Origin: an uncultured SAR86 cluster bacterium
Lineage (GTDB): Bacteria > Pseudomonadota > Gammaproteobacteria > Magnimaribacterales > D2472
Direction: 5' to 3'
DNA: 64,000 nucleotides
Assembly: GCA_902547295.1 (NCBI GenBank)
Contig: CACCNJ010000004.1
Coordinates: 18,575-82,574 of the forward strand
Numbering within the stretch: position 1 is the stretch's first letter; each line of letters opens with the position of its first letter. Under the pieces are notes generated by a model. It ran no database searches. It was not told where the DNA came from and worked only from the letters and a program-made list of their open reading frames with translations. Positions 36,488 through 53,407 of the stretch are shown here, piece by piece. The position numbers were made by a program, and so were the translations under genes.

Positions 36488-36886
36488 TTATCTATTTTTA
36501 AATAGAAAAATAAAAGAAACTGATTGAATAATACCAATAATAATAAATACAAATATATTTGCCGGTATACCAAAAGGATTTGGTTCTTCTATACCTTCAC
36601 CAATTGAAACGCCACCATAAAGTGACATTGTAAATATTGCTGAAAAAAAACCTAACACAATACATGAACTAAGTAGTGCTGGTAATAATAAATAATTACT
36701 TGCCCATAATAGATATAAACCTATTACCGCTATGAATATGTTTGTTGATAATCTCCATACCTCATGAACTCTTGAATGAGCATCCCAATCTGGATTTAGT
36801 AAATGTGTGTGTCCAGTATCAACAATTAATGGGAGCATAGTCCCTAATATTAAACAAATTGTAGTTAAATACTTACTAGTCTTCAT
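36488..36886 (-). CDS. Hypothetical 4-TM membrane protein with His-rich motif (DUF6640-like)
   Basis: Hydrophobic helices and THLLNPDWDAHSRVHEVW. Overlaps the end of the FAH gene. Confidence 0.6.
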   Translation of the reverse strand: MKTSKYLTTICLILGTMLPLIVDTGHTHLLNPDWDAHSRVHEVWRLSTNIFIAVIGLYLLWASNYLLLPALLSSCIVLGFFSAIFTMSLYGGVSIGEGIEEPNPFGIPANIFVFIIIGIIQSVSFIFLFKNR

Positions 36887-37781
36887 CTGAGGGTATTCTA
36901 GATTTTATAAACTCAGGAAGATGATCAGCATTAGAATGTTCCTTCACTTTTACACATTTATTTTCTAGTGTTCCAATTCCTTCAATCGAGGTTTTTAATA
37001 TATCTCCATCCTTTAGGAATTTACCTTGTGTTCCTCCCACACCTGCTGGCGTTCCAGTAAATATGAGATCTCCTACGTTTAACGTAATAAATTCTGAAAT
37101 GTATGAAATTAAATAAGGTATATCAAATATTAGATCATCAGTGTTTGAGTCTTGACGTTTTTCATCGTTTACCCAGCACTCAATTTTTAATGATTCTTTG
37201 TTTTTTAGTTCATCTGTAGAGACAATATATGGTCCTATAGGCCCAAATGTATCAAATGATTTTCCTAAACTGAATTGAGGAGGGGCAGCATGAAACTGCA
37301 CAGCTCGATCTGATATATCTTGTCCCACAGTAAGACCTGCAACATGATCCCATGCGTTATCTTTTGATATATCTTTACCACCTTTACCTATTACAAATAC
37401 CAATTCAGCTTCGTAATCAACTAAATCACTCTTCATCTCTATATTTGAACTTGGTCCACTTAAACAAGTAGAAAGTCTTGTAAATATTAAAGGAAATTGA
37501 GGTATTTCCATATTTGATTCTTCAGCATGCGCTTTATAGTTCAAGCCAACGGCAAAAACATTGTTTGGTACAACAGGGGGGTCTAAAGAAACATCATTTA
37601 AACTCCCATTTGGTTTAAATTCATCAAGTTTAGAATTTAAGATACTTAACTTTTCAGATGATGCTAAAGCCTCAATAGAATTGGATGAAACTTCACCATT
37701 TGATATTGTTTCTATATCAAAATAATCATTATCATTTATTAAAACAGCTTTATTATTAATACTACCTAACTTAAAACCCAT
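36876..37781 (-). CDS. Fumarylacetoacetate hydrolase (FAH) family protein
   Basis: AVGLNY..H, DYEAEL, QDISDR..Q, GKSFDTFGPIGP, GDLIFTGTPAGVG. Start at 37781, after SD GGAGAGG. Confidence 0.92.
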   Translation of the reverse strand: MGFKLGSINNKAVLINDNDYFDIETISNGEVSSNSIEALASSEKLSILNSKLDEFKPNGSLNDVSLDPPVVPNNVFAVGLNYKAHAEESNMEIPQFPLIFTRLSTCLSGPSSNIEMKSDLVDYEAELVFVIGKGGKDISKDNAWDHVAGLTVGQDISDRAVQFHAAPPQFSLGKSFDTFGPIGPYIVSTDELKNKESLKIECWVNDEKRQDSNTDDLIFDIPYLISYISEFITLNVGDLIFTGTPAGVGGTQGKFLKDGDILKTSIEGIGTLENKCVKVKEHSNADHLPEFIKSRIPSDED

Positions 37782-37806
37782 AAACACCTCTCCACAATCA
37801 AATTCT

Positions 37807-37820
37807 TAGTCAGATGACTA
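37807..37820. promoter_or_regulatory. Palindromic operator candidate, copy 1 (TAGTCAGATGACTA)
   Basis: Perfect 6-2-6 palindrome adjoining a minus-strand TATACT -10 element upstream of the FAH gene. Confidence 0.65.
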
Positions 37821-37942
37821 GTATATATATTTTAATTAATATTTAAAGCTCTAAAATTAATACTTTCTGATCAAAATATTTATACCATTAGCTAAAAGCA
37901 TTAGTTTAATCAACATTCTCTTAATATATCAAAATTATATAT

Positions 37943-37989
37943 TTGAAAAAAATATATAATTTAATTAAACTAAACTAACCAAACGGTTA
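37943..37989 (+). promoter_or_regulatory. TonB-receptor promoter with operator candidate, copy 2 (TAACCAAACGGTTA)
   Basis: TTGAAA (37943)-17 bp-TAAACT (37966). A near-palindrome at 37976-37989 covers the expected transcription start. Confidence 0.55.
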
Positions 37990-38012
37990 AAACAAATTTT
38001 TGGGGAGAAAAT

Positions 38013-40397
38013 ATGTACAAATTATTACTTAAATCGACGTTTATTATATCTATTTCATTTATGCCTTTTTATGCTTTCTCACAAGATAGCTCTGGTATTG
38101 AAGAGGTTGTAGTTACTGCAGAGAAGAGAGAACAAAACCTTCAAGATGTTCCGTCATCAATTACTGCTATTTCTGATACTGAAATTGAAAGAGCTACTTA
38201 TCAAAATATGTTTGATTTACAGACATCTGTTCCAAGTCTAGTTGTTGGTTCAGCTGGTGCTTCGAGACCTTTCTTGTTTATAAGAGGTGTAGGTAGTAGA
38301 AAATTTGATCCAGGAACAGAAGGTGCAGTTGGTGTATTTGTAGATGAGATCTATAACACTAGATTCACTAATCAAATGATGGATATTGTTGATTTAGAAA
38401 GAGTTGAAGTCTTAAAAGGTCCACAAGGAACTCTTTATGGAAGAAACACTATTGGCGGTGCAATTTCTCTTTATACTAAAAAACCAACGCAAGAGACTGA
38501 AGGTAAAATTAAACTTGGTTTTGGTGATGAAGGTTATAGTAAATTAGCTGCGACATATTCAGGTGGCCTAACAGATACAATGGTAGGAAGAATAACTTTC
38601 TCATCAAAAACTGATGATGGAAGTAGTACTCATAAAGCAACTGGTAAAAATAATGGGGGAGATAGTGATGCTTTGAGACTTTCTTTAATCAAAGAAATGA
38701 ATAATGGTTCTGAGCTTTCATTTACCTATCAAGATACTTCATATGAATCTTCAGCACATTTAGCAGAGGCATTTTTAGAGTGTGGTCCAACTATTGATCC
38801 TAATGGATCTCCAAACTTTATGTCTGTTGCATATTTCAGAGTAGGTGCAGCCGCGTCTCAACTTGCAGCCGCTGGTATCATGCCAAATGATTGTTACTCA
38901 ACAGGTCATTTATTACCTTTCTTCCCGGCAGGTCCAAGAGCAGGTCAAATTAATGCAGCTGCATTACCAGTAATTGGTGCTGATATTGTTCAAAATATGA
39001 TTCGAGCTGATGTAGCTGATGGCCCAAGAATTATAGATAATGATCATCCTGGTTTTAATAATATTGAGACATCGCTGATGTCTTTAAAATATGTAACTGA
39101 TTTATCTGACACATTGACATTGACTGGTATATTTTCAACAACTGATGTGGAGAATCAATCTAGTTTAGATTTCGATGCAACATCCAGAAATTCTGTAGTG
39201 AATTATGTCGATGAAGAATCAGAACAAACATCTACCGAAATTAGATTAAATTATAACGGCGATAGATTTAACTGGGTTGGTGGTATATATCTTCTAGATG
39301 ATGATATTTACAGAAATGATAACTTTACTTCTAACATAGAGTCCACATTTGGAATTGTTCAAATTATGCAAATGATGGCTGGTATGACACCTGTTGCCTC
39401 TGATAATATGCAAACCTCAAACGCTAATGTTACTTCAGAAGCAATTTATTGGCAGGGCACATATGCAGTTAATGACAAACTTAATGCAACACTTGGCGTA
39501 AGAAAAAGTGATGATGAAAGTGATTATAGTATTGCTGTAGCAACAACATCACCTGGTATTCCTTTTGTTCAGGTACCAGGCGAATGGTCTGAAGTTTTAA
39601 CATTTGGCTCGACAGATCCAAAGTTTGTTTTGGATTACACATTTAACAATAATTCAATGGCATATATTTCATTTGCATCTGGCTATAAAAGTGGAGGATT
39701 CTCATTTGCAACATGGGCTGAATCTGAGTCAAGAGGCGGTTTTACTGAAGAAGAATTAGATTCTACCGAAATTGGCTACAAATTTAAGTCTGCTGATAAT
39801 AGACTTGTTGCAAATTTCGCTTATTACGAGTATGACTACACCGATCAACAACAACAAATTATTGTAGTTACTCGATCTGGTTCATTAGCTGGTAAAACGT
39901 TTAATGCTGGACAGTCAGAAATGACAGGCTGGGAATTAGAAACAAAGTATGCGATAACTGATAATACTCAAGTTGATTTTAATTATTATTCTGCTGATAC
40001 TGAATTTAAATCTTTTGAACTTGCTACAACTGTACCGCCTTTAAGTTTTACTGGTAATCAAATGAATTATTCTCCAGAAAGTGCATACAATATTGCTCTT
40101 ACAACTACTTCAAATGATGGTTCTGGAGTTTTACGACTTGCATATTCATTCAAAGACGAATTTTTCATGGATCCTAGTAATAGATATATCAGTCTTCAAG
40201 ATAGATATGGCATATATAACATGAGCTATACCAAGTACTTAACTGATAATTGGACAGTAAAAGCGTTCTGTACAAACTGTACTGATGTTATTTATAAAAC
40301 ACAAGTTACTACATTTGCAGTGCCATATGGTGGTGGTGGTAGAAATTATTATGCAAATGGAAGACGGGTAGGGATAGAGATTACTCGTAATTTTTAA
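38013..40397 (+). CDS. TonB-dependent outer-membrane receptor
   Basis: Signal peptide, IEEVVVTAEKREQNLQDVP, plug motif ERVEVLKGPQGTLYGRN, GYKSGG, terminal Phe. Confidence 0.95.
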   Translation: MYKLLLKSTFIISISFMPFYAFSQDSSGIEEVVVTAEKREQNLQDVPSSITAISDTEIERATYQNMFDLQTSVPSLVVGSAGASRPFLFIRGVGSRKFDPGTEGAVGVFVDEIYNTRFTNQMMDIVDLERVEVLKGPQGTLYGRNTIGGAISLYTKKPTQETEGKIKLGFGDEGYSKLAATYSGGLTDTMVGRITFSSKTDDGSSTHKATGKNNGGDSDALRLSLIKEMNNGSELSFTYQDTSYESSAHLAEAFLECGPTIDPNGSPNFMSVAYFRVGAAASQLAAAGIMPNDCYSTGHLLPFFPAGPRAGQINAAALPVIGADIVQNMIRADVADGPRIIDNDHPGFNNIETSLMSLKYVTDLSDTLTLTGIFSTTDVENQSSLDFDATSRNSVVNYVDEESEQTSTEIRLNYNGDRFNWVGGIYLLDDDIYRNDNFTSNIESTFGIVQIMQMMAGMTPVASDNMQTSNANVTSEAIYWQGTYAVNDKLNATLGVRKSDDESDYSIAVATTSPGIPFVQVPGEWSEVLTFGSTDPKFVLDYTFNNNSMAYISFASGYKSGGFSFATWAESESRGGFTEEELDSTEIGYKFKSADNRLVANFAYYEYDYTDQQQQIIVVTRSGSLAGKTFNAGQSEMTGWELETKYAITDNTQVDFNYYSADTEFKSFELATTVPPLSFTGNQMNYSPESAYNIALTTTSNDGSGVLRLAYSFKDEFFMDPSNRYISLQDRYGIYNMSYTKYLTDNWTVKAFCTNCTDVIYKTQVTTFAVPYGGGGRNYYANGRRVGIEITRNF

Positions 40398-40400
40398 TTT

Positions 40401-40430
40401 TATAGCCCTCTCTTAGGAGAGGGTTTATAT
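40401..40430 (+). terminator. Rho-independent terminator-like hairpin after the TonB receptor
   Basis: gccctctc-ttag-gagagggt followed by ttatat. Confidence 0.6.
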
Positions 40431-40501
40431 CTTACATAAAGATATAATTTTTATAATTTATTATATAAATATTAAGACTTATATTAATGATTGGTAATTA
40501 A

Positions 40502-41353
40502 ATGAATAACTATGTTTTATATGGATATGGTGAGTCTGTTGCATCTAATGTTGTAAGACTTGCCTTAGCAGAAAAAAATATATCTTACGACTACAAATTA
40601 TTATATCTAGAATCAAGAGGTGATCATCTTAAGGCTGATTATAAAAAGTTAAATCCAAAGACTCTTCTTCCAACACTTACTGTGAATGAAAAGCCAATAT
40701 CTGAAAGTATTGATATTATGAGATTTATTGATAATGAACATACTGATCAGGGCTCAACATTATTTCCAAAAAATCAAGATGAAGAATTTGATAATTTATT
40801 AGATTACTTATTTCTTGATGACACAAAAGAATTAGGTGAAACATTTGGAACAACTGGTGGAGGTATATCGGTTCCTGTTCTTGCTAAGTTGTTATGCAAA
40901 AGATCTTTTTTTTCAGTTTTATGGGATTATTTAAAAAATCACGGAGTTAGCAAAAGAAAATTTATTTTTGTTATGGTTAGATATTTTGGCGGACCACCTC
41001 CAGGCCTATATGAGAAAATGATGTACTTTTTAGCTAAACATTTGGTCTACACAGAAAATTACTTAAATCATGGAAAAACTTATATATATGGTAATGATTA
41101 CACTGCAGCTGATTGCCTTTTAACACCATTATTACACAGAGTTAATGAGATGAGATTTCATGGTGTGTTTGATGGTAGTAAATTTCCTAACTTATCAAGA
41201 TATTGGGATACCATATCTAATAGACCAAGTTATAAGGAAGCAATTATTAATTATGAAACTGGTGAATGGAAACCAGTATTAGAGGACTTATACGGTGATG
41301 GGCCTAACTTGTATAATGATTTATTATGGTCTGAAATAGAAAAAATTAGATAG
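40502..41353 (+). CDS. Glutathione S-transferase family protein
   Basis: SVASNVVRLALAEK, LNPKTLLPTL, ESIDIMRFID, YTAAD, PNLSRYW...RPS. Confidence 0.85.
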   Translation: MNNYVLYGYGESVASNVVRLALAEKNISYDYKLLYLESRGDHLKADYKKLNPKTLLPTLTVNEKPISESIDIMRFIDNEHTDQGSTLFPKNQDEEFDNLLDYLFLDDTKELGETFGTTGGGISVPVLAKLLCKRSFFSVLWDYLKNHGVSKRKFIFVMVRYFGGPPPGLYEKMMYFLAKHLVYTENYLNHGKTYIYGNDYTAADCLLTPLLHRVNEMRFHGVFDGSKFPNLSRYWDTISNRPSYKEAIINYETGEWKPVLEDLYGDGPNLYNDLLWSEIEKIR

Positions 41354-41363
41354 GAGATTATTT

Positions 41364-42455
41364 ATGACAGAACCAATTTGTAAAGTAGCAGATATTATTT
41401 ATGTTAGGTTTGAACTTACAGAGTTCGAAGAACAGAAAAAGTACTTTGATCATTTTGGGTTGATGCTCGCATATGAAGATGAAAATAGTATTTTTTTTAG
41501 AGGTTCTGGAACTGCGCCTTATGCATATGTTGCAACTAAAGGTAAAGAAAATAAATACATTGGAACAGCATATAAGGCTAATGAGTACTCTGACTTAGAA
41601 GCATTATCAAAAGAATTTAATGTTGATATTATTGAAAATACTGAGCCTGGTGGTGGCCATAAAGTAACCGTAATAGATCCTGACGGTATTGAAGTTGAAG
41701 TATGCCACGGAATGACGCCTGCTGAACCAGTAGCAGTTGTATCTAAAGTTTTAAATACAGGTCAATCAAAACAAAGAGAAAACGAACTTCAACGTTTTGG
41801 AAAAGCTGCTGATGAATGGCAGGTTGAAGGAGATAAGTGGGTATATAAACTTAAATCTAATGTGAAAAGACTAGGACACACTGCAATTAACTGTAGGGAT
41901 GCCAAAGCATCAGTAGATTGGTATTCTCGTGTTTTAGGCTTCCTAGTAAGTGATGATGTTTTAGGCCCAGATGGTAATTCAATTGGAGCTTTTATGAGAT
42001 GTGATCAAGGAGATAAACCTGTAGATCATCATACTCTTAATAACATTCAACTTCCTGGTGATAACTATCCTGGTCCTTATGGCCATTCTGGTTATGAGGT
42101 TACCGACTCTGTAGATGATTTAATGGCTGGCCATTATCATATGAAGACTATTGATGAGTATTATCATGAATGGGGAGTTGGAAGACATCTTTTGGGAAGT
42201 CAAATGTATGATTATTGGAGAGATACTCATGGTTTTACACATGAACATTGGACAGACGGCGATCTGTTGGATGCAAGTATACCTGAAAACAAAGCGTCGT
42301 TTAGAGATGTTGTTATGGCTCAATATGGACCAACTCCACCAATAACATTTGGTGTAACATTGCCTGTTGACCAAATAGATAAAGTTAGAGCAGAGCAACC
42401 AACGCTTCCTGACCTAATTAAAGAAATGGAAATCGCTGCTAAGAAAGGAGCATAA
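41364..42455 (+). CDS. Two-domain VOC extradiol-type dioxygenase, 2,4,5-trihydroxytoluene oxygenase (DntD)-like
   Basis: RLGH, VDHHT and HEWGVGRHLLGSQMYDYWRD..GFTHEHWTDGD, the signature of the THT-oxygenase C-terminal domain (His/His/Glu metal ligands). Confidence 0.8.
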   Translation: MTEPICKVADIIYVRFELTEFEEQKKYFDHFGLMLAYEDENSIFFRGSGTAPYAYVATKGKENKYIGTAYKANEYSDLEALSKEFNVDIIENTEPGGGHKVTVIDPDGIEVEVCHGMTPAEPVAVVSKVLNTGQSKQRENELQRFGKAADEWQVEGDKWVYKLKSNVKRLGHTAINCRDAKASVDWYSRVLGFLVSDDVLGPDGNSIGAFMRCDQGDKPVDHHTLNNIQLPGDNYPGPYGHSGYEVTDSVDDLMAGHYHMKTIDEYYHEWGVGRHLLGSQMYDYWRDTHGFTHEHWTDGDLLDASIPENKASFRDVVMAQYGPTPPITFGVTLPVDQIDKVRAEQPTLPDLIKEMEIAAKKGA

Positions 42456-42459
42456 CAAT

Positions 42460-43122: not shown

Positions 43123-43128
43123 TTATCT

Positions 43129-43983: not shown

Positions 43984-43992
43984 TTAAAAAAA

Positions 43993-46130: not shown

Positions 46131-46143
46131 TTTTATATGAATA

Positions 46144-47724
46144 TTAATCCTTAAAAAACTCTCCTTTGAGTTTTGTAATAAGTTTATCAATATTATTAAT
46201 AATATCTACATTATCCACACAACCATATATATGTTGATCTGGTCGAATTATTGCAACAGATATATTATTTTCTTTAGCCCAATTACAAATCTTTTTATCT
46301 TGATTAAATTTATTATCTTCTGTCATTAGATGAATATTATTCTCAAAAATTTTTGCTGATTCTAAATTTTTAATTTCATTGAATACATTTGAATCATTTT
46401 CAAATAGTAAAATTCCAAAATTGTTGCCAAGATATTGATCAAATAATTTATTATCAACTTTAATATCAAGGGAAGGGTGAGGAATAATTACACCATTAAC
46501 ATCATTAGGGAATAGATCATTATCAATCATTCCATTTTTAATTTTCCATGGCTTCTGAAATTTTAAAGGTTTTAGAAGTTTTGGTATATAACTAGCAACA
46601 TTAAGATAAATGTCTCTTAAGGTTGCTGTTAACCAATCTTGACTTCCAATTATATCGCCTTGTTTCATTGCGCCTTTTATTACAAAATCTACAATTCCTT
46701 TTCTTTCTAATGAATATGTATTAAGAATTTCTTTATTAAAAATGTTATTCATTACGCCTGACAATTTCCAACATAAGTTATATGAATCCTTTATACCTTG
46801 GCATAGACCTTGTCCTAAAAACGGAGGCATTTGATGGGCAGCATCACCTAAAAGAAAACAATTATTAAATTTAAAATTTTTTGCTAATAGGCCATGAAAT
46901 GTATAAGCACTAGATCTTAACAACTTACCACTATTCAGTGGAATTTCTGGATTTAGCCTCCAAAGATGTGGCTTCATCATTTTACGTATATTTTTTTCGT
47001 CTTCTAATGTCGCTAAATTATCATCAGGATTAACCTTAAATTCCCATCTTACGTGTTGTCCTGTTATTGGAACAATTGTTGTTGGTCTCTTATAGTCACA
47101 TATCTGATATCGATCAGTGTTAATCTTATATTTATCATCTACCTGATAATCTACAACCACCCAATCTTGGTCACATTTATAATCAAATGATTCTATATTT
47201 AATGCCTTTCTAACAAAACTATTAGCACCATCACAAGCTAAAACATAGTTACTTGTTATATATTCATTTTCTTCGTTGTTTATATTTAATAAAGTTAAAT
47301 TATTAATAGATTCTTGAGCATCAATATTTGTTAACTTATAGCCAAGTTTTATATCAATATTATTATGTTTAATAGCTTCACTTCTTAAAAAATTTTCAAA
47401 TATAGGTTGATTAAAGAAAACACTCTCATCATAACCATTAATTGGCTCATCAAGCTTAAGATTAATATTTACAATTGATTTACCTTTATTATTTAAAAAA
47501 TTAATTCCTTCCATTGGATGAATAATTTTTGAAATTTCACCCATAAAGCCCATTGTTTGAAATATTCTTTGAGTTTGTCCATCAAAATGAACAGCCCTTG
47601 GAATATCCCAAATTTCTTTTTTTGGTTCTATTACAATTGTATTGAAACCTTTTTGTCCAAATAAATTTGCTGTTACAGCACCGACAGGACCATAACCTAT
47701 AATTGCAATATCATAATTTTTCAT
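46144..47724 (-). CDS. FAD-dependent phenolic monooxygenase, MhpA-like
   Basis: GYGPVG, PRAVHFD, FNQP..E, CDGANS.VR, RWEF, GDAAHQMPPFLGQGLCQGIKD, IIRPD. Confidence 0.9.
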   Translation of the reverse strand: MKNYDIAIIGYGPVGAVTANLFGQKGFNTIVIEPKKEIWDIPRAVHFDGQTQRIFQTMGFMGEISKIIHPMEGINFLNNKGKSIVNINLKLDEPINGYDESVFFNQPIFENFLRSEAIKHNNIDIKLGYKLTNIDAQESINNLTLLNINNEENEYITSNYVLACDGANSFVRKALNIESFDYKCDQDWVVVDYQVDDKYKINTDRYQICDYKRPTTIVPITGQHVRWEFKVNPDDNLATLEDEKNIRKMMKPHLWRLNPEIPLNSGKLLRSSAYTFHGLLAKNFKFNNCFLLGDAAHQMPPFLGQGLCQGIKDSYNLCWKLSGVMNNIFNKEILNTYSLERKGIVDFVIKGAMKQGDIIGSQDWLTATLRDIYLNVASYIPKLLKPLKFQKPWKIKNGMIDNDLFPNDVNGVIIPHPSLDIKVDNKLFDQYLGNNFGILLFENDSNVFNEIKNLESAKIFENNIHLMTEDNKFNQDKKICNWAKENNISVAIIRPDQHIYGCVDNVDIINNIDKLITKLKGEFFKD

Positions 47725-47731
47725 AGTAAAT

Positions 47732-47773
47732 AGTTTATGAGTTGATTTATTTTAGTCAAGTGGATAGGATATT
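47732..47773. promoter_or_regulatory. Divergent promoter pair with operator candidate, copy 3 (TAGTCAAGTGGATA, 47753-47766)
   Basis: Plus strand: TTGATT (47742)-17-TAGGAT (47765). Minus strand: TTGACT (47759-47754)-16-TAAACT (47737-47732), 7 nt before the monooxygenase ATG. Confidence 0.6.
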
Positions 47774-47807
47774 ATGTTTAAATCAGTTAAAGATTGGGAG
47801 AAATAAA

Positions 47808-48221
47808 ATGGTCGAATTTGAAATTAGTAATAACTTCTCTATTGGATTTATAGGGCGGGTAATGTTTATGTTTGCCATGTTATTCTTGTTATGGATGGTG
47901 TTTAAAGCTATTGCTTTAGCTCACGAAAGAGGTTCAAATTTATTTCAAAAAATACTTGGAACAACAATTTCTGGATGTGTTTTGATTTTTAATTTATTAG
48001 CATGGAATAGATTTCCAGCATTCTTCAACAATTGGGCTTACAGTTTGTCTCAATTAGACTCTTTGAGTCCAGGTGGACAAAGGTTTGTAGATAATATGGA
48101 GCCTACTGGCTATCTTGACGCAGGATTAGTACCCTCTGATCCAGTAAGCACAGTTTTTTGGCTTGGCATAGCCATTGCTCTATTGATGGGAATATGGACA
48201 GCTCCTAAGCCTAAAGCTTAA
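47808..48221 (+). CDS. Hypothetical 3-TM membrane protein (paralog of the gene at 63767)
   Basis: SD GGGAG, then ATG at 47808 (MVEFEISNNFSIGFIG...). Three hydrophobic segments and a basic C-terminus. Confidence 0.7.
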   Translation: MVEFEISNNFSIGFIGRVMFMFAMLFLLWMVFKAIALAHERGSNLFQKILGTTISGCVLIFNLLAWNRFPAFFNNWAYSLSQLDSLSPGGQRFVDNMEPTGYLDAGLVPSDPVSTVFWLGIAIALLMGIWTAPKPKA

Positions 48222-48320
48222 ATAAAAGCCTTTAGAGCGGTCTTTTAAAATTTAAAATCTTAATTATTTTCAAGGCAAACATATTTAAGATATTATCCTT
48301 TCTTAGTATATAGTTAATGG

Positions 48321-48353
48321 GTTGATTTATTTTAGTCAACTGGTTAGGATATT
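48321..48353 (+). repeat. 33-bp direct repeat of 47741-47773: promoter plus operator candidate, copy 4 (TAGTCAACTGGTTA)
   Basis: gttgatttattttagtcaa[c/g]tgg[t/a]taggatatt, 31 of 33 nt identical. Contains TTGATT-17-TAGGAT. Confidence 0.8.
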
Positions 48354-48382
48354 TAGACCAACTTATTATAAAGGGGAGTTTT

Positions 48383-49870
48383 ATGTACAAAGTTGATCAC
48401 TTTATTAACGGAAAATCATCGTCTGAATCTAATAAAACATCAAAAATATATAATCCTTCATATGGAACTGAAATTGGAGAAGTCTTATGTGCAACAAATG
48501 AGGTTGCTGCAGAGGCTGTTGAATCTGCCTATGAAGCATCAAAAGCTTGGTCAAAAACTGGATTAATCTATAGATCAGAGTTAATTCTAAAATTTAGACA
48601 AAATGTCATTAATAGGTCTAAAGAAATAATTGATTTAGGTATAAGTGAGGCTGGAAAAACTCGACCAGATGCTGAGGCTGAGCTTGATAGGGCAGTTCAA
48701 GCATTGACTCATATTGCTGGCGTTCAACACTTTTACCCATCTCACTATAGTCAAAATGTTGCAGGTGGAATTGATATAGCTGACTTAAGATTTCCTATTG
48801 GTGTTGTCGTTGGCGTGGGTCCTTTTAATTTTCCAATCTTGATTCCATTATTGCACAGCGCCATGGCATTGGTGACTGGAAATACTTATATTGGCAAACC
48901 CAGCGAAAAAGTTCCCTCTGTCTCTAGGCTATATGCTGATATATGGAAAGAATCTGGCCTTCCAGATGGTTGTTATAATGTTGTTAATGGTGACAAAGAA
49001 ACAGTTGAATTTTTGATCTGTCATGAAAAAGTTGATGGCTTAGCATTTATCGGTAGTACAGCTGCTGCAAAGAGCTTAAAAATGCTCGGAGTTGAACATA
49101 ATACAAAAGTTCAAGCTCTGGGTGGTGCCAAAAATCATATGATTGTTCTTCCTGATGCTGACTTAGATATGTCAGCAGATGCTGCAGTTTCTGCTAGTTT
49201 TGGTGCTGCTGGCCAGAGATGCATGGCTGTATCTGTAGTTGTTGCTGTTGGTGATATAGCAGATGAACTCTTAGATAAAATTAAAGAAAGGATGCCGAAT
49301 TTAATTATGGGTGTTACTGATGATGATAAAACACAATTAGGACCAGTTATCTCACCTGAAAATAAAGATAGAATTTATTCATTTATTGATAGTGCTGAAC
49401 CTGATGGGGCAACTTTAGTTGTAGATGGAAGAATTAGATCTAATTCATTGGAGGGATGTTTTGTGGGTCCGACATTAATTGATAACGTTAAACCAGGTAT
49501 GGCTGTATATGAAAATGAAATTTTTGGACCTGTATTATCTTTTGTCAGAGCTAAAACTTATGATGAAGCTATGAAAATTACTAATTCAAATAATTTCGGA
49601 AATGGAGCTGCTTTATTTACACGTGATGGTGGAGTCGCAAAAAAATGGTCTGATGAGATTCAGGCTGGTTCAGTGGGTATTAATGTACCAATTCCTTTGC
49701 CAACTTATGCGCATAGTTTTGGTGGTTGGAAGGACAGTGCATTCTCGGAAACTAAAGGTTTTGGTCCATCAGCAATTGAGTTTTATACAAAGACCAAGTC
49801 CTTATCAACTCGTTGGCCAGATCCTGCTGACAGTAAGGTTGATTTAGGATTCCCAAGAAATGATAACTAA
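48383..49870 (+). CDS. mmsA: CoA-acylating (methyl)malonate-semialdehyde dehydrogenase
   Basis: PFNFP, KPSEKVP, VQALGGAKNH, FGAAGQRCMA, EIFGPVL, FGNGAALFT, GINVPIP, FGGWK. Confidence 0.88.
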   Translation: MYKVDHFINGKSSSESNKTSKIYNPSYGTEIGEVLCATNEVAAEAVESAYEASKAWSKTGLIYRSELILKFRQNVINRSKEIIDLGISEAGKTRPDAEAELDRAVQALTHIAGVQHFYPSHYSQNVAGGIDIADLRFPIGVVVGVGPFNFPILIPLLHSAMALVTGNTYIGKPSEKVPSVSRLYADIWKESGLPDGCYNVVNGDKETVEFLICHEKVDGLAFIGSTAAAKSLKMLGVEHNTKVQALGGAKNHMIVLPDADLDMSADAAVSASFGAAGQRCMAVSVVVAVGDIADELLDKIKERMPNLIMGVTDDDKTQLGPVISPENKDRIYSFIDSAEPDGATLVVDGRIRSNSLEGCFVGPTLIDNVKPGMAVYENEIFGPVLSFVRAKTYDEAMKITNSNNFGNGAALFTRDGGVAKKWSDEIQAGSVGINVPIPLPTYAHSFGGWKDSAFSETKGFGPSAIEFYTKTKSLSTRWPDPADSKVDLGFPRNDN

Positions 49871-51098
49871 TTTCTTAGATCGATTACTAAGCATCCTTTC
49901 TTATATCGTATTTGTATTTATTGATATATATATAAATCTTCGTATATTCTTCAGAGGTACTTCATCAAACAAAAAACTAAATTTTAAGGAATATTTTGTT
50001 TCAATTGAAAATGATAATCATACAATTAGTGAGATTGGTGATCACCAAGCAACTTCAGATAAAACCTTATTGTTAATTGGTGGTATACCAACAGATCCAA
50101 TTGAATCAATGTCATGGTTGGCATATGAGCTTCATAAAATAGATTCAACCCTTAGGATAATTATTTTTAATATGCCTCATTATGATGAACACTTTGATAT
50201 CGAATATTCTGAGGAATTTGCCATTTCTAATGGCGAAAGTTTCATAACTCGAAAAGAAATTGATTTTTCAACTCATAAAATTGATCCAAAATTTAGCCAT
50301 GTTAATCAATCAAAAACAGTTAACTTATTAATGAATAAAATAGAAATTGATGCTGCTCATGTTATTGGGCACGATAGGGGGGCTGTTATTCTAGAAAATC
50401 TTTGTATTAATAACCCAGAAAAGGTAATTACCTACTCAAGAGCCGCGCAAGTTTGGAATTATATAGAGCCTGAATGGAAAAATTTAGCTCCAAAAATTCC
50501 TATTGGCCCTCCACATAAATTAATGTCTATATATCATCAATTTAGAATATTATTCTTTCAAGTCTTGAATTTCAATAAACCAATTCGTTTACTTTCTGAA
50601 ACTTTTGAAATTAATGCAAAATCATCAAAAAAAGATAATGATCTTTATGATAGATACACAATTCTAAAGTATAAATCTCAAGTTTCTTATAAAAAATATT
50701 TCAAAAAAATTCAGCAATCTTTTATTCAAGGAGGTCTGGATATTGAGGTGCAGAATAGAATAAAACTAAAAAATACTTCGATACCCATAATGCAATTCCA
50801 AGGGGAGGATGAATTTAAAAGAGCGTCTAATGGATCTCTTATTTCTGATCAGCCATATTTTGGAAAATATAATTTATTTAGAAATGAAATTGAAGATATT
50901 TACCCATCGGCTGTAGATCAATCTTCAGTACCTCTTAAAAAAGAATATCTTTCTGATTTAGGTTTATATAAAGAAATTCAATTAAAGGAAGGGGCTACAT
51001 TCAATAAATTTTGTTTAATTCCAGATGCTGCACATTTTAATGTAATTGAAAATCCAAGAGCATGTGCACATGCCATTTATGATTTTATTAACACATAA
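49860..51098 (+). CDS. Divergent membrane-anchored alpha/beta hydrolase (Asp nucleophile)
   Basis: N-terminal TM segment, LLIGGIP in place of HGxP, IGHDRG nucleophile elbow, QGEDE, IPDAAHF..IENP. Confidence 0.65.
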   Translation: MITNFLDRLLSILSYIVFVFIDIYINLRIFFRGTSSNKKLNFKEYFVSIENDNHTISEIGDHQATSDKTLLLIGGIPTDPIESMSWLAYELHKIDSTLRIIIFNMPHYDEHFDIEYSEEFAISNGESFITRKEIDFSTHKIDPKFSHVNQSKTVNLLMNKIEIDAAHVIGHDRGAVILENLCINNPEKVITYSRAAQVWNYIEPEWKNLAPKIPIGPPHKLMSIYHQFRILFFQVLNFNKPIRLLSETFEINAKSSKKDNDLYDRYTILKYKSQVSYKKYFKKIQQSFIQGGLDIEVQNRIKLKNTSIPIMQFQGEDEFKRASNGSLISDQPYFGKYNLFRNEIEDIYPSAVDQSSVPLKKEYLSDLGLYKEIQLKEGATFNKFCLIPDAAHFNVIENPRACAHAIYDFINT

Positions 51099-51136
51099 GT
51101 CTTAGAGGATACTTAAACCTCTAATATTTGATAACT

Positions 51137-51991
51137 ATGAAAAAATATATAGATGTTAAAGGTAAAAAATTAGCTTACATTGATAAGGGTAAGGGTGATG
51201 CAATTGTATTTATTCATGGAAATCCAGCATCGTCTTATTTGTGGAGAAATATTGCTCCTAATTTTATTAAATCACATAGGATAATTGTTCCGGATTTAAT
51301 TGGCATGGGAGACTCAGAAAAACTTGGAGGCGTTGATAACTCTGAATACTCATTTAATGGCCATTATAATTTTTTGGATGAATTTTTAATCAAATTAAAT
51401 CTTGGAGAAAAAATCAACCTTGTAATTCATGATTGGGGTTGCGGTCTAGGACTAAAGTTTGCAAGACTGCACCCTGAGATAATTTCATCAATAACATTCA
51501 TGGAAGGGATTACAGTTCCGCTTAAATGGGAACAATGGCCAGAAGCTGGAACAAAGATATTTAAATTATTTCGATCTGAAGTCGGAGAAGAGTTAATTCT
51601 TGATAAAAACATCTTTGTAGAAAGAATTTTATTTGCCGATCCTATAACGCCAATGTCAGACGAAACAAAAGAGGAGTATCTAAGACCTTTTTTAAATCCA
51701 GGTGAAGATAGAAGACCAACTTTAACTTTTCCAAGAAATATTCCTCTTGATGGAGAGCCTAATGATACTTACGTTGAAATCAATAAAAATGCAGAATTTC
51801 ATAAAAATTCAAATATACCAAAATTATTTATTAATGCTGATCCAGGATTTCTTCTGGTTGGATCTCAACGCGACGAGGTAAGAGACTGGAATAATCTTAA
51901 AGAAGTAACTGTAAAAGGTAACCATTTCATCCAAGAAGATTCCCCTGATGAAATTACAGCTCATATAAAAGATTTTATAAATAATTTATAA
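51137..51991 (+). CDS. Haloalkane dehalogenase (LinB/DhaA-like)
   Basis: HGNPASSYLWRNI, PDLIGMGDS, VIHDWG, FMEG, RRPTLTFPRNIP, GNHFIQEDSPDEI. Start placed at the ATG at 51137. Confidence 0.9.
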   Translation: MKKYIDVKGKKLAYIDKGKGDAIVFIHGNPASSYLWRNIAPNFIKSHRIIVPDLIGMGDSEKLGGVDNSEYSFNGHYNFLDEFLIKLNLGEKINLVIHDWGCGLGLKFARLHPEIISSITFMEGITVPLKWEQWPEAGTKIFKLFRSEVGEELILDKNIFVERILFADPITPMSDETKEEYLRPFLNPGEDRRPTLTFPRNIPLDGEPNDTYVEINKNAEFHKNSNIPKLFINADPGFLLVGSQRDEVRDWNNLKEVTVKGNHFIQEDSPDEITAHIKDFINNL

Positions 51992-53357: not shown

Positions 53358-53407
53358 TATATATTATTTAACATAATATATATTATGCGAACCTATATAT
53401 CTTAATC

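What the first reader, a model, noticed from the sequence alone, without database searches (positions are those of the whole stretch)
36488..51991. Candidate undescribed 'phenolic utilisation locus': TonB import, desulfation/dehalogenation and a DntB/C/D/G/E-like hydroxyquinol meta-cleavage route
Seen: within about 15 kb there is a TonB receptor, an exported sulfatase, an MhpA-like FAD monooxygenase, a HadB/RutE flavoreductase, a THT-oxygenase-type VOC dioxygenase, an FAH hydrolase, a CoA-acylating (methyl)malonate-semialdehyde dehydrogenase, two GSTs, two Asp-nucleophile hydrolases and a TetR, linked by a shared operator-like palindrome. Known: the Burkholderia 2,4-dinitrotoluene lower pathway uses a flavoprotein monooxygenase (DntB), a quinone reductase activity (DntC), THT oxygenase (DntD), an FAH-family hydrolase (DntG) and a methylmalonate-semialdehyde dehydrogenase (DntE), yielding pyruvate plus an acyl-CoA. 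HadB/TcpB-type proteins act as quinone reductases in chlorophenol pathways. Inference: this streamlined marine bacterium imports a natural substituted phenolic (for example an algal aryl sulfate or bromophenol), strips the substituents, forms a 1,2,4-trihydroxybenzene and cleaves it to pyruvate plus (methyl)malonate semialdehyde. It could be a natural-substrate counterpart of the xenobiotic dnt pathway, arranged like a polysaccharide utilisation locus. The substrate cannot be read from sequence.
Basis: partly seen in the sequence, partly recalled or inferred. Interest (0 to 1): 0.9.

Follow-up and report, generated by a model that had tools for sequence, protein, structure and literature searches.

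The report
Sulfatase-linked phenolic breakdown island
A small-genome marine bacterium carries an optional, jointly regulated block of genes that most likely imports a sulfated or otherwise substituted phenolic compound, strips it, opens the ring and feeds the pieces into central metabolism; the substrate is unknown.

Summary
A conserved operator-like motif, TTAGTCA-NN-TGRNTAG, sits in all three promoter regions.

The block is an accessory island downstream of clpA. It is gained and lost as a unit. In 41 genomes of the genus, the VOC dioxygenase, the RutE-like reductase and a true MMSDH occur only inside this island, in 8-9 genomes.

Six loci from three other genera of the family keep the same core: FAH, TonB receptor, GST, VOC, RutE-like, sulfatase, TetR, MhpA-like hydroxylase and MMSDH. 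Porticoccaceae and Cellvibrionales MAGs keep much of it in a different order.

The VOC is a two-domain type I extradiol dioxygenase with all catalytic residues. It lies in a separate, uncharacterised marine clade. Grouping with DntD could not be tested, because no DntD sequence was obtainable. The closest named relative is MhqB, at 32% identity.

The dnt-like reading is chemically coherent but inferred: hydroxylation, meta-cleavage, FAH hydrolysis to pyruvate plus (methyl)malonate semialdehyde. Desulfation is well supported by context. Dehalogenation is weaker, because the HLD gene is optional.

Verdict: a new variant of a known kind, moderately interesting.

The parts
36488..36886 (-). 132-aa membrane protein of unknown family. 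It overlaps the FAH stop by 11 nt and travels with FAH.
   Evidence: No Pfam or NCBIfam family; only a sub-threshold DUF6640 match at E 0.011. Found next to FAH in G024, G005, G009, G007, G052, G053, G094 and G131. Weaker matches in G032 and G119.
36876..37787 (-). FAH-family enzyme. Proposed role: hydrolase of the 2,4-diketo acid (acylpyruvate) made by ring fission.
   Evidence: PF01557, 222 bits. Below every NCBIfam equivalog cut-off; best matches are 2,4-didehydro-3-deoxy-L-rhamnonate hydrolase (186 bits) and HpaG C-terminal domain (173 bits). PDB: 6v77 putative HpcE, 1gtt HpcE, 8gsr L-2,4-diketo-3-deoxyrhamnonate hydrolase. Lies next to VOC in 66 of 80 loci.
37806..37821 (.). Operator-like palindrome TTAGTCAGATGACTAG in the divergent FAH|TonB-receptor promoter region.
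   Evidence: Conserved block in alignment A3 of 7 genomes. Regex hits in L013, L015, L016, L112 and L113.
38013..40397 (+). TonB-dependent outer-membrane receptor.
   Evidence: Plug plus beta-barrel. Below all NCBIfam siderophore, B12 and haem cut-offs. 70-99% identical within the genus. In other genera a different paralogue (24-29% identity) holds the same position. 44% identical in Porticoccaceae and Cellvibrionales loci.
40502..41353 (+). GST1, 283 aa, with a zeta/delta-like N-terminal domain. It ends 10 nt upstream of VOC. Proposed role: glutathione-dependent isomerase or dehalogenase.
   Evidence: GST_N and GST_C Pfam domains. maiA N-terminal match of 70.8 bits, below the 171 cut-off. PDB matches to delta GSTs and to maleylpyruvate/maleylacetoacetate isomerases are weak. 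Directly upstream of VOC in 8 of the 10 marine-clade loci L026-L034 and L037 and in all six L115-L120.
41364..42455 (+). Two-domain type I extradiol ring-cleavage dioxygenase (VOC) of an uncharacterised marine clade.
   Evidence: AF2 pLDDT 92.7. Foldseek top hits: 3b59, LapB, XylE, HPCD, BphC. H172/H241/E294 and H222-223/H275/Y284 align with the ligands and catalytic residues of BphC and HPCD. The clade has 100/100 support and a stem of 1.38.
42460..43122 (+). RutE-like FMN reductase (nitroreductase family), starting 4 nt after VOC. Proposed role: malonate-semialdehyde reductase or quinone reductase.
   Evidence: NF003768, 269 bits against a cut-off of 152. In 41 genus genomes it occurs in 8, always beside VOC. 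About 52% identical to plasmid genes annotated as malonic semialdehyde reductase.
43129..43983 (-). GST2, 284 aa. Optional member of the island.
   Evidence: GST domains. 34% identical to GST1 over the N-terminal 100 residues only. Missing in G128, G105, G101, G094 and G131.
43993..45546 (-). S1-family (formylglycine-type) sulfatase, exported and membrane-anchored. It is the only sulfatase in this genome.
   Evidence: PF00884. The CSPTR motif, signal peptide and C-terminal hydrophobic tail were read from the translation. Best PDB match is human GalNAc-4-sulfatase 1fsu (213 bits), followed by carrageenan sulfatases and AtsA. Single copy in G000. A core member of all six loci from other genera, at 58-90% identity.
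45543..46190 (-). TetR-family regulator. The start is probably the ATG at 46130. Presumed repressor of the island.
   Evidence: PF00440. Conserved beside the hydroxylase in all cluster loci.
46144..47724 (-). Group A flavoprotein phenol hydroxylase (MhpA-like).
   Evidence: PF01494. NF004829, 396.7 bits against a cut-off of 390. Best PDB matches: phenol 2-monooxygenase 8r2u, PnpA 6ain, 3-hydroxybenzoate hydroxylase 2dkh. A homologue lies beside VOC in 59 of 80 loci.
47719..48353 (.). Duplicated 55-nt promoter/operator segment (47719-47773 and 48299-48353), each carrying TTAGTCA-NN-TGG-N-TAG. The copies flank a 580-bp insertion that holds a 137-aa membrane ORF (47808-48221, +).
   Evidence: The insertion and the ORF were found only in G024 (98.5% identity). 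There is a weak 30% match elsewhere in L119.
48383..49870 (+). CoA-acylating (methyl)malonate-semialdehyde dehydrogenase.
   Evidence: TIGR01722, 502.7 against 448.5. Over the cut-off in 8 of 41 genus genomes. All of these are cluster carriers, or contig fragments of the cluster.
49860..51098 (+). 412-aa membrane-anchored alpha/beta hydrolase with an Asp at the nucleophile elbow. Function unknown.
   Evidence: GGIPT, GHDRGA (D172) and AAHF (H392) are invariant in 7 sequences. Weak PDB sequence matches to epoxide hydrolases. The AF2 model is poor (pLDDT 56.6), but D172 sits between a strand and a helix. Foldseek top hits are epoxide hydrolases, haloalkane dehalogenases and fluoroacetate dehalogenase.
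51128..51991 (+). Haloalkane dehalogenase. Optional member of the island.
   Evidence: NF002938, 333 against 241. Present in G024, G119 (69%) and G101 (90%). A second sulfatase takes its place in G009, G007, G052 and G053.
52034..54448 (.). DUF1330, cytochrome b561, a 157-aa ORF and a cyclase-family gene. They belong to the same variable region and may belong to the regulon.
   Evidence: Pfam. Absent with the island in G002 and G018. The operator motif lies upstream of DUF1330 in G009, G052 and G053. A cytochrome b561 homologue lies near VOC in 4 of 80 distant loci and a DUF1330 homologue in 1 of 80.

Best explanation
This is a TetR-controlled accessory catabolic island of four operons that share one operator. 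It serves the uptake and complete breakdown of a substituted phenolic compound, most likely a sulfate ester.

Proposed order of events:
1. The TonB receptor imports the compound.
2. The membrane-anchored periplasmic S1 sulfatase removes the sulfate.
3. In the cytoplasm the MhpA-like flavoprotein hydroxylates the phenol, giving a ring with vicinal hydroxyls, probably a 1,2,4-trihydroxy (hydroxyquinol-type) ring.
4. The type I extradiol dioxygenase opens the ring next to the diol.
5. The adjacent zeta-like GST isomerises the product.
6. The FAH-family enzyme cleaves the resulting 2,4-diketo acid into pyruvate and (methyl)malonate semialdehyde.
7. MMSDH converts the semialdehyde to acetyl- or propionyl-CoA.
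8. The RutE-like flavoprotein either reduces surplus malonate semialdehyde or reduces a hydroxyquinone intermediate.

Shown: the gene families, the catalytic residues of the dioxygenase, the shared operator, and co-inheritance and co-conservation. Inferred: every substrate, the order of the steps, and the roles of the GSTs, the 412-aa hydrolase and the dehalogenase.
For: The VOC fold and its active site come.

Regulon. The operator motif is in all three promoter regions of the window. It is also in the hydroxylase|MMSDH spacer of 11 of 11 related loci, and it is an invariant block in alignments A2 and A3.

Co-inheritance in 41 genus genomes:
- VOC in 7, plus one fragment at a contig end.
- RutE-like in the same 8 genomes.
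- True MMSDH in 8, of which 7 are in that set and 1 lies on a short contig.
- G002 and G018 have no island at the clpA site.

Conservation beyond the genus:
- FAH, TBDR, GST1, VOC, RutE-like, sulfatase, TetR, hydroxylase and MMSDH are in all six loci from three other genera.
- Sulfatase, TetR, ABH412, hydroxylase, MMSDH, TBDR, GST1, VOC and RutE-like appear in another order in a Porticoccaceae MAG. A Cellvibrionales MAG locus has the same set except the sulfatase.
- G032, from another family, has u132, FAH, hydroxylase, sulfatase (61% identity), VOC, GST and TBDR.
- A non-orthologous variant island at the same site in G014 again joins GST, a small VOC, FAH, an FAD monooxygenase and a sulfatase.

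Precedent. The dnt lower pathway uses a flavoprotein monooxygenase, THT oxygenase, a bifunctional isomerase/hydrolase and a CoA-dependent MMSDH, and yields pyruvate plus propionyl-CoA (passages of PMC10602510). MhqA and MhqB lie with an FAH gene on a Burkholderia plasmid. The fde/ifc flavonoid A-ring route uses an FAD monooxygenase plus a 'glyoxalase' dioxygenase (PMC11069340).

The FAH's best family match is a 2,4-diketo-acid hydrolase.

Contigs at least 90% alike from four marine metatranscriptome runs of four studies cover 24-29 of 30 bins of the island.
Against: - No enzyme here has a tested function, and the VOC clade has no characterised member.
- Grouping with DntD could not be examined.
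- The FAH scores almost as well against HpcE-type decarboxylase/isomerases. The Porticoccaceae and Cellvibrionales loci show no FAH within the DNA held, which reached to within a few hundred bases of the contig end for one and 10 kb either side of VOC for the other.
- The sulfatase's closest solved relatives are carbohydrate sulfatases and human ARSB, not a dedicated bacterial arylsulfatase.
- No formylglycine-generating enzyme was found in any of 6 island genomes, two of them 93-94% complete. No anaerobic maturase was found in any of 5.
- No inner-membrane transporter is evident.
- The hydroxylase is only 24% identical to MhqA and barely passes its NCBIfam subfamily cut-off.
- RNA-library contigs can contain DNA and do not show strand or level.
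Confidence: 0.5

Rival explanations
1. A homoprotocatechuate-like or catechol-type meta pathway by the dehydrogenative branch. The hydroxylase makes an ordinary substituted catechol and the VOC cleaves it. The aldehyde dehydrogenase oxidises the ring-fission semialdehyde. The FAH-family protein acts as an HpcE-type decarboxylase/isomerase, not as a hydrolase.
For: The VOC's best NCBIfam match, far below cut-off, is HpaD (48 bits). The FAH matches HpaG C-terminal domain at 173 bits, and its top PDB hits are HpcE proteins 6v77 and 1gtt. An HpcH/HpaI aldolase lies near the Cellvibrionales cluster.
Against: The dehydrogenase passes the MMSDH cut-off (502.7 against 448.5). It scores only 251 against HpaE (cut-off 638) and 243 against 2-hydroxymuconic semialdehyde dehydrogenase (cut-off 693). 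No hydratase, aldolase or tautomerase is in the island. The RutE-like protein and the GSTs have no role in this scheme.
Confidence: 0.13
2. A para-diol (gentisate/homogentisate/hydroquinone-like) route. The hydroxylase adds a para hydroxyl and the VOC cleaves a hydroquinone. The zeta-like GST isomerises a maleyl product to a fumaryl product, and the FAH enzyme hydrolyses that.
For: GST plus FAH is the classic maleyl-isomerase and fumaryl-hydrolase pair. Both GSTs resemble maleylacetoacetate or maleylpyruvate isomerases at their N-termini. The nearest named VOC relative, MhqB, belongs to a methylhydroquinone pathway (a citing sentence in PMC4572682).
Against: The VOC keeps the full catechol-type set of residues: the His/His/Glu ligands in the C-terminal domain plus the His/His/Tyr catalytic residues. 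From recall only, hydroquinone-cleaving VOCs of the PcpA/LinE type arrange their ligands differently. The GST matches stay far below the maiA cut-off (70 against 171). MMSDH and the RutE-like protein would have no substrate.
Confidence: 0.1
3. The ring-cleavage module and the sulfatase act on different parts of a larger conjugate, or on unrelated compounds. Examples are a steroid or terpenoid sulfate, a sulfolipid or a sulfated sugar. Alternatively the island is a co-regulated mixed detoxification set (GSTs, dehalogenase, nitroreductase-type reductase, sulfatase) and not one linear pathway.
For: The sulfatase's solved relatives are mainly carbohydrate sulfatases and steryl or GalNAc sulfatases. 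The SAR86 literature proposes steroid, lipid and sulfoglycolipid use, and a general solubilising role for the many GSTs (passages of PMC11582366). The site is a hypervariable region with a changing gene complement. HLD and GST2 come and go.
Against: The core of nine genes is kept together across four genera and in another gene order in other orders. One operator serves the operons. MMSDH and the RutE-like protein are found in the genus only here. VOC, FAH and the hydroxylase form a module in 59-66 of 80 loci.
Confidence: 0.15
4. A polyphenol (flavonoid- or phlorotannin-type) A-ring cleavage system of the fde/ifc kind. The hydroxylase adds a hydroxyl to a resorcinol- or phloroglucinol-type ring of a larger molecule, and the VOC opens that ring. 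This uses the same chemistry as the best explanation but a bulky natural substrate.
For: FdeE/IfcA (group A FAD monooxygenase) plus FdeC/IfcB (annotated 'glyoxalase') hydroxylate and then cleave the flavonoid A-ring (PMC11069340). A TonB receptor suits a bulky substrate. A cupin gene lies beside a VOC homologue with FAH genes in Cupriavidus necator N-1, and IfcD is a cupin.
Against: No FdeC or IfcB sequence was available for comparison. No cupin or C-C hydrolase of the ifc type is in the island. MMSDH and the RutE-like protein point to a small C3 semialdehyde product, which a fused-ring substrate would not give directly.
Confidence: 0.1

Closest known systems
Lower 2,4-dinitrotoluene pathway of Burkholderia (DntB, DntC, DntD, DntG, DntE)
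   Same: It uses the same set of enzyme families: a flavoprotein monooxygenase, an extradiol VOC dioxygenase, an FAH-family isomerase/hydrolase and a CoA-dependent MMSDH. The end products would be pyruvate plus an acyl-CoA (passages of PMC10602510). A reductase that could stand in for DntC is present.
   Different: Sequence grouping with DntD, DntB and DntG was not tested, because no sequences were obtainable. The marine VOC forms its own clade. The island adds a TonB receptor, a periplasmic sulfatase, zeta-like GSTs, a TetR operator system and optional dehalogenases. It has no initial Rieske dioxygenase. The host is a roughly 1.3-Mb pelagic bacterium, not a soil xenobiotic degrader.
mhqA-mhqB methylhydroquinone genes on fenitrothion-degrader Burkholderia plasmids
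   Same: A flavoprotein monooxygenase gene lies next to a VOC dioxygenase with an FAH-family gene nearby. The VOC is the nearest named relative found, at 31.7% identity over 325 residues. The FAH is 40% identical.
   Different: The hydroxylase is only 24% identical to MhqA, and over only half its length. MhqB sits in a different, well-separated clade. That locus has no sulfatase, TonB receptor, MMSDH or RutE-like gene.
fde/ifc flavonoid A-ring cleavage clusters (Herbaspirillum, Variovorax)
   Same: The logic is the same: a group A FAD monooxygenase hydroxylates a resorcinol-type ring, and a 'glyoxalase'-family dioxygenase then opens it (PMC11069340).
   Different: The downstream enzymes there are cupins and an alpha/beta C-C hydrolase. 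There is no MMSDH and no sulfatase. Homology of the dioxygenases was not tested.
Polysaccharide utilisation loci and other TonB-receptor-centred substrate loci of marine bacteria
   Same: An outer-membrane TonB receptor, a periplasmic sulfatase and cytoplasmic catabolic enzymes are encoded together under one regulator.
   Different: No SusD-like gene and no glycoside hydrolase is present. The catabolic part is an aromatic ring-cleavage route.

Membership tests
Type I (two-domain VOC) extradiol ring-cleavage dioxygenases | Two tandem VOC domains with the fold of catechol 2,3-dioxygenase, BphC or HPCD | tested here: met
   AF2 model with pLDDT 92.7 and pTM 0.91. Foldseek probability 1.00 to 3b59, 3hpy, 1mpy, HPCD entries and 1kmy.
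Type I (two-domain VOC) extradiol ring-cleavage dioxygenases | 2-His-1-carboxylate metal site in the C-terminal domain, plus the catalytic His, His and Tyr | tested here: met
   H172, H241, E294, H222/H223, H275 and Y284 are invariant in 30 sequences. In the profile alignments they fall on the LGH, HH(F)MLEV and HHTL positions of BphC (1han) and on the GRH...Y.Y...E stretch of HPCD (1f1r). The residue numbers of the solved enzymes are recalled; PDB titles naming H200 and Y257 variants appear.
Type I (two-domain VOC) extradiol ring-cleavage dioxygenases | O2-dependent ring fission of a vicinal diol | not testable with these tools
   Needs an enzyme assay.
DntD-type 2,4,5-trihydroxytoluene oxygenases | Groups with DntD in a tree or in the CDD THT_oxygenase models | not testable with these tools
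   No DntD sequence or CDD model was reachable (searches returned none by name). The nearest named relative is MhqB at 31.7% identity, in a different clade.
DntD-type 2,4,5-trihydroxytoluene oxygenases | Genomic association with an FAH-family hydrolase and a CoA-acylating MMSDH | tested here: met
   Both are in the island and in all six loci from other genera.
CoA-acylating methylmalonate-semialdehyde dehydrogenase (TIGR01722) | Score above the curated cut-off | tested here: met
   502.7 bits against 448.5. The next family scores 287.
RutE-type malonic semialdehyde reductase (NF003768) | Score above the curated equivalog cut-off | tested here: met
   269.2 bits against 152.
HadB/TcpB quinone reductases | Sequence grouping with HadB or TcpB | not tested
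   No HadB or TcpB sequence was at hand. Their quinone-reductase role is taken from passages of PMC6922536. The Cupriavidus locus I fetched carried no annotation.
S1 formylglycine-dependent sulfatases | Sulfatase domain with the C-x-P-x-R maturation motif | tested here: met
   PF00884, 192 bits. CSPTR read in the translation.
S1 formylglycine-dependent sulfatases | A maturation enzyme (FGE or anSME) in the genome | tested here: not met
   PF03781 was found in none of 6 island genomes (G000 at 77% complete; G009 at 93% and G052 at 94%). TIGR03942 was found in none of 5. From recall, some bacteria mature Cys-type sulfatases by an unidentified route, so this result weakens the function but does not exclude it.
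Haloalkane dehalogenase (NF002938) | Score above the curated cut-off | tested here: met
   333.2 bits against 241. HGNP, HDWG and HF.QED motifs are seen in the translation; the motif meanings are recalled.
Asp-nucleophile alpha/beta hydrolases (epoxide hydrolase / dehalogenase group), for the 412-aa protein | Asp at the nucleophile elbow, a C-terminal catalytic His, and an alpha/beta fold | tested here: inconclusive
   GHDRGA and AAHF are invariant. D172 lies between strand 166-171 and helix 173-184. The Foldseek top hits are epoxide hydrolases and dehalogenases, but the model has pLDDT 56.6 and TM scores of 0.4-0.5. The Pfam Abhydrolase_1 match is sub-threshold.
Bacteroidota-type polysaccharide utilisation locus | SusC/SusD pair with glycan-active enzymes | tested here: not met
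   Pfam found no SusD-like or glycoside hydrolase family among the ORFs scanned.
TetR-controlled regulon | A TetR gene plus a repeated palindromic site in the promoters it would control | tested here: met
   TetR_N domain. The motif is at 37806, 47752 and 48332 and is conserved in relatives. Binding itself was not tested.

The most novel reading that the evidence does not exclude
The island is a 'phenolic sulfate utilisation locus'. It would be a dedicated, widely distributed system by which abundant small-genome pelagic Gammaproteobacteria, and with variants other marine Proteobacteria, take up sulfated algal phenolics through a TonB receptor. They would desulfate them in the periplasm and burn them through a natural hydroxyquinol meta-cleavage route ending in pyruvate plus malonate semialdehyde. 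That would make it the natural ancestor-type of the xenobiotic dnt lower pathway and an unrecognised sink for aromatic marine dissolved organic matter.
Probability: 0.25. Interest if true: 0.75.

Novelty: new variant of a known kind. Interest (0 to 1): 0.55.

Why it matters
Which compounds the most abundant small-genome ocean bacteria eat is an open question. Genome surveys of SAR86-type bacteria note many ring-cleaving dioxygenases, GSTs, arylsulfatases and TonB receptors, but do not connect them (passages of PMC11582366).

Here these four classes are tied into one regulated, transferable unit with a predictable chemistry and a repressor. The repressor's ligand would name the substrate. Sequence nearly identical to the island is in 14 marine metagenome runs of 9 studies, each holding at least half of the sampled words. 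Contigs at least 90% alike are in four metatranscriptome runs of four studies.

If the proposed route is right, it would give a natural function to the VOC-FAH-hydroxylase module that is widespread in Proteobacteria. It would also give a natural context for the origin of the dnt and mhq xenobiotic pathways. If it is wrong, the TetR operator and the small gene set still make the system easy to test.

Tried and rejected
1. Obtaining DntD for a tree. Three searches returned no DntD by name, so the DntD grouping test was dropped: the VOC homologue search, tblastn against plasmids and a homologue search seeded with the MhqB-like protein of plasmid CP003092. The Johnson 2002 paper is not held by DOI.

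2. The protein-atlas search on the VOC gave only generic 'VOC family' clusters.

3. The palindrome as first read, TTGATTTATTTTAGTCAA. It has 2 copies against 0.92 expected, and 22 of 100 shuffles reach 2, so it is not significant alone. Its left half is not conserved in G009 and G053. I replaced it with the conserved core TTAGTCA-NN-TGRNTAG. The loose form TAGTCANNTGACTA with 2 mismatches is also not significant: 5 found, 3.64 expected.

4. LinE/PcpA-type hydroquinone dioxygenase and lin/pcp-like chlorohydroquinone pathway. I considered these because of the HLD, GST, FAD monooxygenase and VOC combination. They were set aside as the main reading because the VOC has catechol-type residues and the HLD is optional.

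5. MCP (Ser) C-C hydrolase role for the two alpha/beta hydrolases. Rejected, because both carry Asp at the elbow.

6. Mobility signals. There are no tRNA genes in the window, and no integrase or transposase family turned up among the ORFs I scanned.

7. My 'mem159' query was out of frame, a coordinate slip (47809 instead of 47808). Its rows are invalid. I repeated the test correctly.

8. RNA contigs. Bins with no or low cover, such as 47106-47722 and 50191-52041, are not evidence of silence. Contigs cannot rank expression.

9. The Cupriavidus oxalaticus locus fetched to look for a tcp-like context had no annotation.

It remains an inference from four points: four families in the order, genomes of 0.9-1.8 Mb, about 30% G+C and marine metagenome holders.

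11. Paper supplements were closed. Table S5 of PMC11582366 may list some of these genes by KEGG name.

12. Statements that this cluster is not described in print rest on searches. They also rest on the passages read. The library lacks most subscription journals.

Full report
**What is there.**
The window has about 30% G+C. It lies in a 1.05-Mb, 77%-complete genome assembly, G000, contig 4. Between clpA (33987-36224) and a small ABM-family gene (54423-54728) lie four tightly packed transcription units:
- u132 and FAH, on the minus strand;
- TonB receptor, GST1, VOC and RutE-like, on the plus strand, with gaps of 104, 10 and 4 nt;
- MhpA-like hydroxylase, TetR, sulfatase and GST2, on the minus strand, overlapping or 9 nt apart;
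- MMSDH, ABH412 and HLD, on the plus strand, with an 11-nt overlap and a 29-nt gap.

Four proteins pass curated NCBIfam cut-offs:
- RutE-type reductase: 269 against 152.
- MMSDH: 502.7 against 448.5.
- Haloalkane dehalogenase: 333 against 241.
- MhpA-like subfamily: 396.7 against 390, only just.

The FAH, the TonB receptor, both GSTs, the sulfatase and the VOC are clear superfamily members but fall below every specific cut-off.

**The dioxygenase.**
An AlphaFold model built on 30 homologues is confident (pLDDT 92.7). Its nearest solved folds are the two-domain extradiol enzymes: 3b59, LapB, XylE, homoprotocatechuate 2,3-dioxygenase and BphC. H172, H241 and E294, and also H222/H223, H275 and Y284, are invariant in the family alignment. 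In profile alignments to BphC and HPCD they fall on the metal ligands and on the catalytic His/His/Tyr positions.

So this is a complete catechol-type ring-cleaving enzyme. No homologue among the best 120 carries a functional name; all are 'VOC family' or generic names, from Porticoccaceae, Maricurvus, Congregibacter, Pseudomonadales and marine Alphaproteobacteria.

In a maximum-likelihood tree of 44 sequences, the roughly 360-residue marine clade is fully supported (100/100) on a long stem of 1.38. It is separate from a 308-residue alphaproteobacterial clade and from the clade of the MhqB-like protein next to mhqA on a Burkholderia plasmid. That protein is the nearest named relative, at 31.7% identity. 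I could not obtain DntD.

**One regulon.**
Aligning the hydroxylase|MMSDH spacers of six genomes shows an invariant block, ATTTATTTTAGTCAAGTGG-TA, in otherwise diverged DNA. The FAH|receptor spacers of seven genomes share TTAGTCA-NN-TG--TA.

The joint pattern TTAGTCA-NN-TGRNTAG occurs three times in 64 kb and in none of 100 shuffles. The pattern was chosen after seeing the sites, so this figure is partly circular. The sites are at 37806, 47752 and 48332, exactly the three promoter regions. A regular expression of the core finds the motif in the hydroxylase|MMSDH spacer of all 11 related loci that contain that spacer, across four genera. In three genomes it also lies upstream of DUF1330.

The two copies at 47752 and 48332 belong to a 55-nt duplication around a 580-bp insertion with a small membrane ORF. 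Only this genome and G024 have that insertion. The island's TetR is the obvious candidate repressor, but binding is inferred.

**Inheritance as a unit.**
Counts among the 41 genomes of the genus:
- Full VOC in 7 genomes, plus a fragment at a contig end in G022.
- RutE-like gene in exactly those 8 genomes, always beside VOC.
- An aldehyde dehydrogenase above the MMSDH cut-off in 8 genomes. Seven of them are in that set. One, G019, has it at the start of a short contig. In G005 the contig ends after the RutE-like gene.

Gene order is the same in G024, G005, G009, G007, G052 and G053. The near-complete genomes G002 and G018 have no island after clpA; they have BipA and an M64 peptidase there.

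G014 has a non-orthologous variant at the same place: a 281-aa GST, a 228-aa VOC, FAH, a 495-aa FAD monooxygenase and a sulfatase. G023 has TetR, GST, FAH and a sulfatase.

Across 155 genomes of the order at least 80% complete (plus G000), VOC copies at least 57% identical occur in 14 genomes in all. Thirteen are in four genera of this family, counting G000, and one is in another family. More distant paralogues, at 34-44% identity, are common in two other families.

**Conservation beyond the genus.**
Six loci from three other genera all keep FAH, a TonB receptor (a different paralogue, 24-29% identical), GST1, VOC, RutE-like, sulfatase (58-90%), TetR, hydroxylase and MMSDH. Four of the six keep ABH412, and two have the HLD.

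Among 80 VOC-bearing loci from named public genomes, I counted homologues within the DNA held (tblastn E at most 1e-8, at least half the query covered). Many loci are cut short by contig ends:

| Gene | Loci of 80 |
|---|---|
| FAH | 66 |
| MhpA-like hydroxylase | 59 |
| GST1 | 12 |
| Sulfatase | 10 |
| GST2 | 8 |
| TonB receptor | 7 |
| RutE-like | 5 |
| MMSDH | 5 |
| TetR | 4 |

Ten of these loci hold a marine-clade VOC (L026-L034, L037):

| Gene | Loci of 10 |
|---|---|
| GST1 directly upstream of VOC | 8 |
| FAH | 7 |
| Hydroxylase | 7 |
| Sulfatase | 5 |
| TonB receptor | 5 |

A Porticoccaceae MAG holds sulfatase, TetR, ABH412, hydroxylase, MMSDH, receptor, GST1, VOC and RutE-like in a different order. 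A Cellvibrionales MAG holds the same set without the sulfatase. Neither locus shows an FAH. The Cellvibrionales one instead has cytochrome b561, a HAD hydrolase, an HpcH/HpaI aldolase and another alpha/beta hydrolase nearby.

Plasmid-borne relatives in Microvirga, Burkholderia and Cupriavidus again pair the VOC with FAH, TetR and, in Microvirga, an MhpA-annotated hydroxylase.

**How it most likely works.**
Ring hydroxylation by a phenol hydroxylase-type flavoprotein would come first. Its best solved relatives are phenol 2-monooxygenase, PnpA and 3-hydroxybenzoate hydroxylase. Extradiol cleavage would follow. That combination is the established logic of three known systems:
- the dnt lower pathway (passages of PMC10602510);
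- the mhq genes (a citing sentence in PMC4572682);
- the fde/ifc flavonoid A-ring route (PMC11069340).

What singles out a trihydroxy (hydroxyquinol-type) intermediate is what follows the dioxygenase. This step rests on general chemistry and is inference. Meta-cleavage of such a ring gives a 2,4-diketo acid, an acylpyruvate. FAH-family enzymes hydrolyse that kind of compound, giving pyruvate and a (methyl)malonate semialdehyde.

The island carries an FAH whose best family match is a 2,4-diketo-acid hydrolase. It also carries two enzymes whose families act on malonate semialdehyde, MMSDH and RutE. In this genus those two occur nowhere else. The zeta-like GST directly upstream of the VOC could supply the isomerase activity that DntG combines with hydrolysis.

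The RutE-like protein could alternatively be the quinone reductase of such pathways. HadB and TcpB are quinone reductases (passages of PMC6922536), but I did not test homology to them.

The sulfatase has a signal peptide, a CSPTR motif and a C-terminal anchor. It is the only sulfatase in the genome and a constant member of the island. Periplasmic desulfation of the imported compound is therefore the simplest reading.

**Weak points.**
- No member of the VOC clade has been characterised.
- The FAH resembles HpcE-type decarboxylases almost as much as it resembles hydrolases.
- The sulfatase's solved relatives are mostly carbohydrate sulfatases and human ARSB.
- Neither FGE nor the anaerobic maturase was found in island-bearing genomes: none of 6 and none of 5.
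- There is no obvious inner-membrane transporter.
- The HLD and GST2 are dispensable, so dehalogenation is not a core step.
- ABH412 has the motifs of Asp-nucleophile hydrolases, but its model is poor and its role is unknown.

**In the sea.**
Fourteen metagenome runs labelled marine, seawater, marine plankton or simply metagenome hold at least half of the sampled words of a 9.7-kb stretch of the island. They come from 9 studies, and one may be the source sample. Six metatranscriptome runs of 4 studies hold 23-39% of the words.

Contigs at least 90% alike from four RNA runs of four studies cover 28, 28, 24 and 29 of 30 bins of 36000-54500. Some contigs bridge VOC to RutE-like, sulfatase to TetR, and MMSDH to ABH412. 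This is compatible with transcription in situ. It is not proof, because RNA libraries can hold DNA and contigs give neither strand nor level.

**Comparison and novelty.**
The SAR86 genome literature that I could read describes abundant catechol dioxygenases, GSTs, arylsulfatases and TonB transporters in general terms, but not this cluster (passages of PMC11582366 and PMC8371827). A 2026 preprint on polyphenol use by SAR116 deals with intradiol hydroxyquinol cleavage, not with this system. Other searches found nothing matching.

I rate the island a new variant of a known kind. It is a dnt/mhq/fde-like hydroxylase, extradiol and FAH route, extended by MMSDH and RutE-like genes. It is coupled to a TonB receptor and a periplasmic sulfatase under a TetR operator. 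It sits in a mobile hot spot of very small pelagic genomes.

Noticed in passing
window 47719-48353: A 580-bp insertion carries a 137-aa membrane ORF (47808-48221). It is flanked by a 55-nt direct duplication of the hydroxylase|MMSDH promoter/operator (89% identity). It is present only here and in G024. In ten other island copies the two genes are about 75-210 nt apart.
   Followed up: yes
L109 (G014) 11500-17550 and L108 (G023) 2700-7400: At the same site downstream of clpA, other species of the genus carry a non-orthologous variant island. G014 has a GST, a 228-aa single VOC, FAH, a 495-aa FAD monooxygenase and a sulfatase. G023 has TetR, GST, FAH and a sulfatase. The site is a hot spot for sulfatase-linked aromatic modules.
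   Followed up: partly
whole genomes G000, G009, G052, G024, G007, G053: The island's sulfatase has a Cys-type CSPTR motif. No formylglycine-generating enzyme (PF03781) and no anaerobic sulfatase maturase (TIGR03942) was found in these genomes. The maturation route is unexplained.
   Followed up: partly
window 52034-54448: DUF1330, cytochrome b561, a 157-aa ORF without a family and a PF04199 cyclase-family gene vary with the island. In G009, G052 and G053 the operator motif lies upstream of DUF1330. A cytochrome b561 homologue lies near VOC in 4 of 80 distant loci and a DUF1330 homologue in 1 of 80.
   Followed up: partly
L115-L120 (other genera of the family): The TonB receptor at the conserved position is only 24-29% identical to the one in the window, while the neighbouring enzymes are 55-90% identical. 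The receptor has apparently been exchanged for another paralogue, perhaps changing what is imported.
   Followed up: no
G057 contig C15 (same coordinates as L026): One genome of a different family of the order carries a 76%-identical VOC with the island's gene set, in addition to that family's own 37%-identical paralogue. This looks like transfer of the island between families.
   Followed up: no
window 42120-42398 (-) and 53769-54086 (+): ORFs of 92 and 105 aa lie antisense inside the VOC and cyclase genes. They are most likely not genes.
   Followed up: no
L028 11876-15172 (Cellvibrionales MAG): In this relative the VOC and RutE-like pair is followed by cytochrome b561, a HAD-family (haloacid dehalogenase-like) hydrolase, an HpcH/HpaI aldolase and a Ser-type alpha/beta hydrolase. 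No FAH is found within 10 kb, so the downstream steps may differ.
   Followed up: partly
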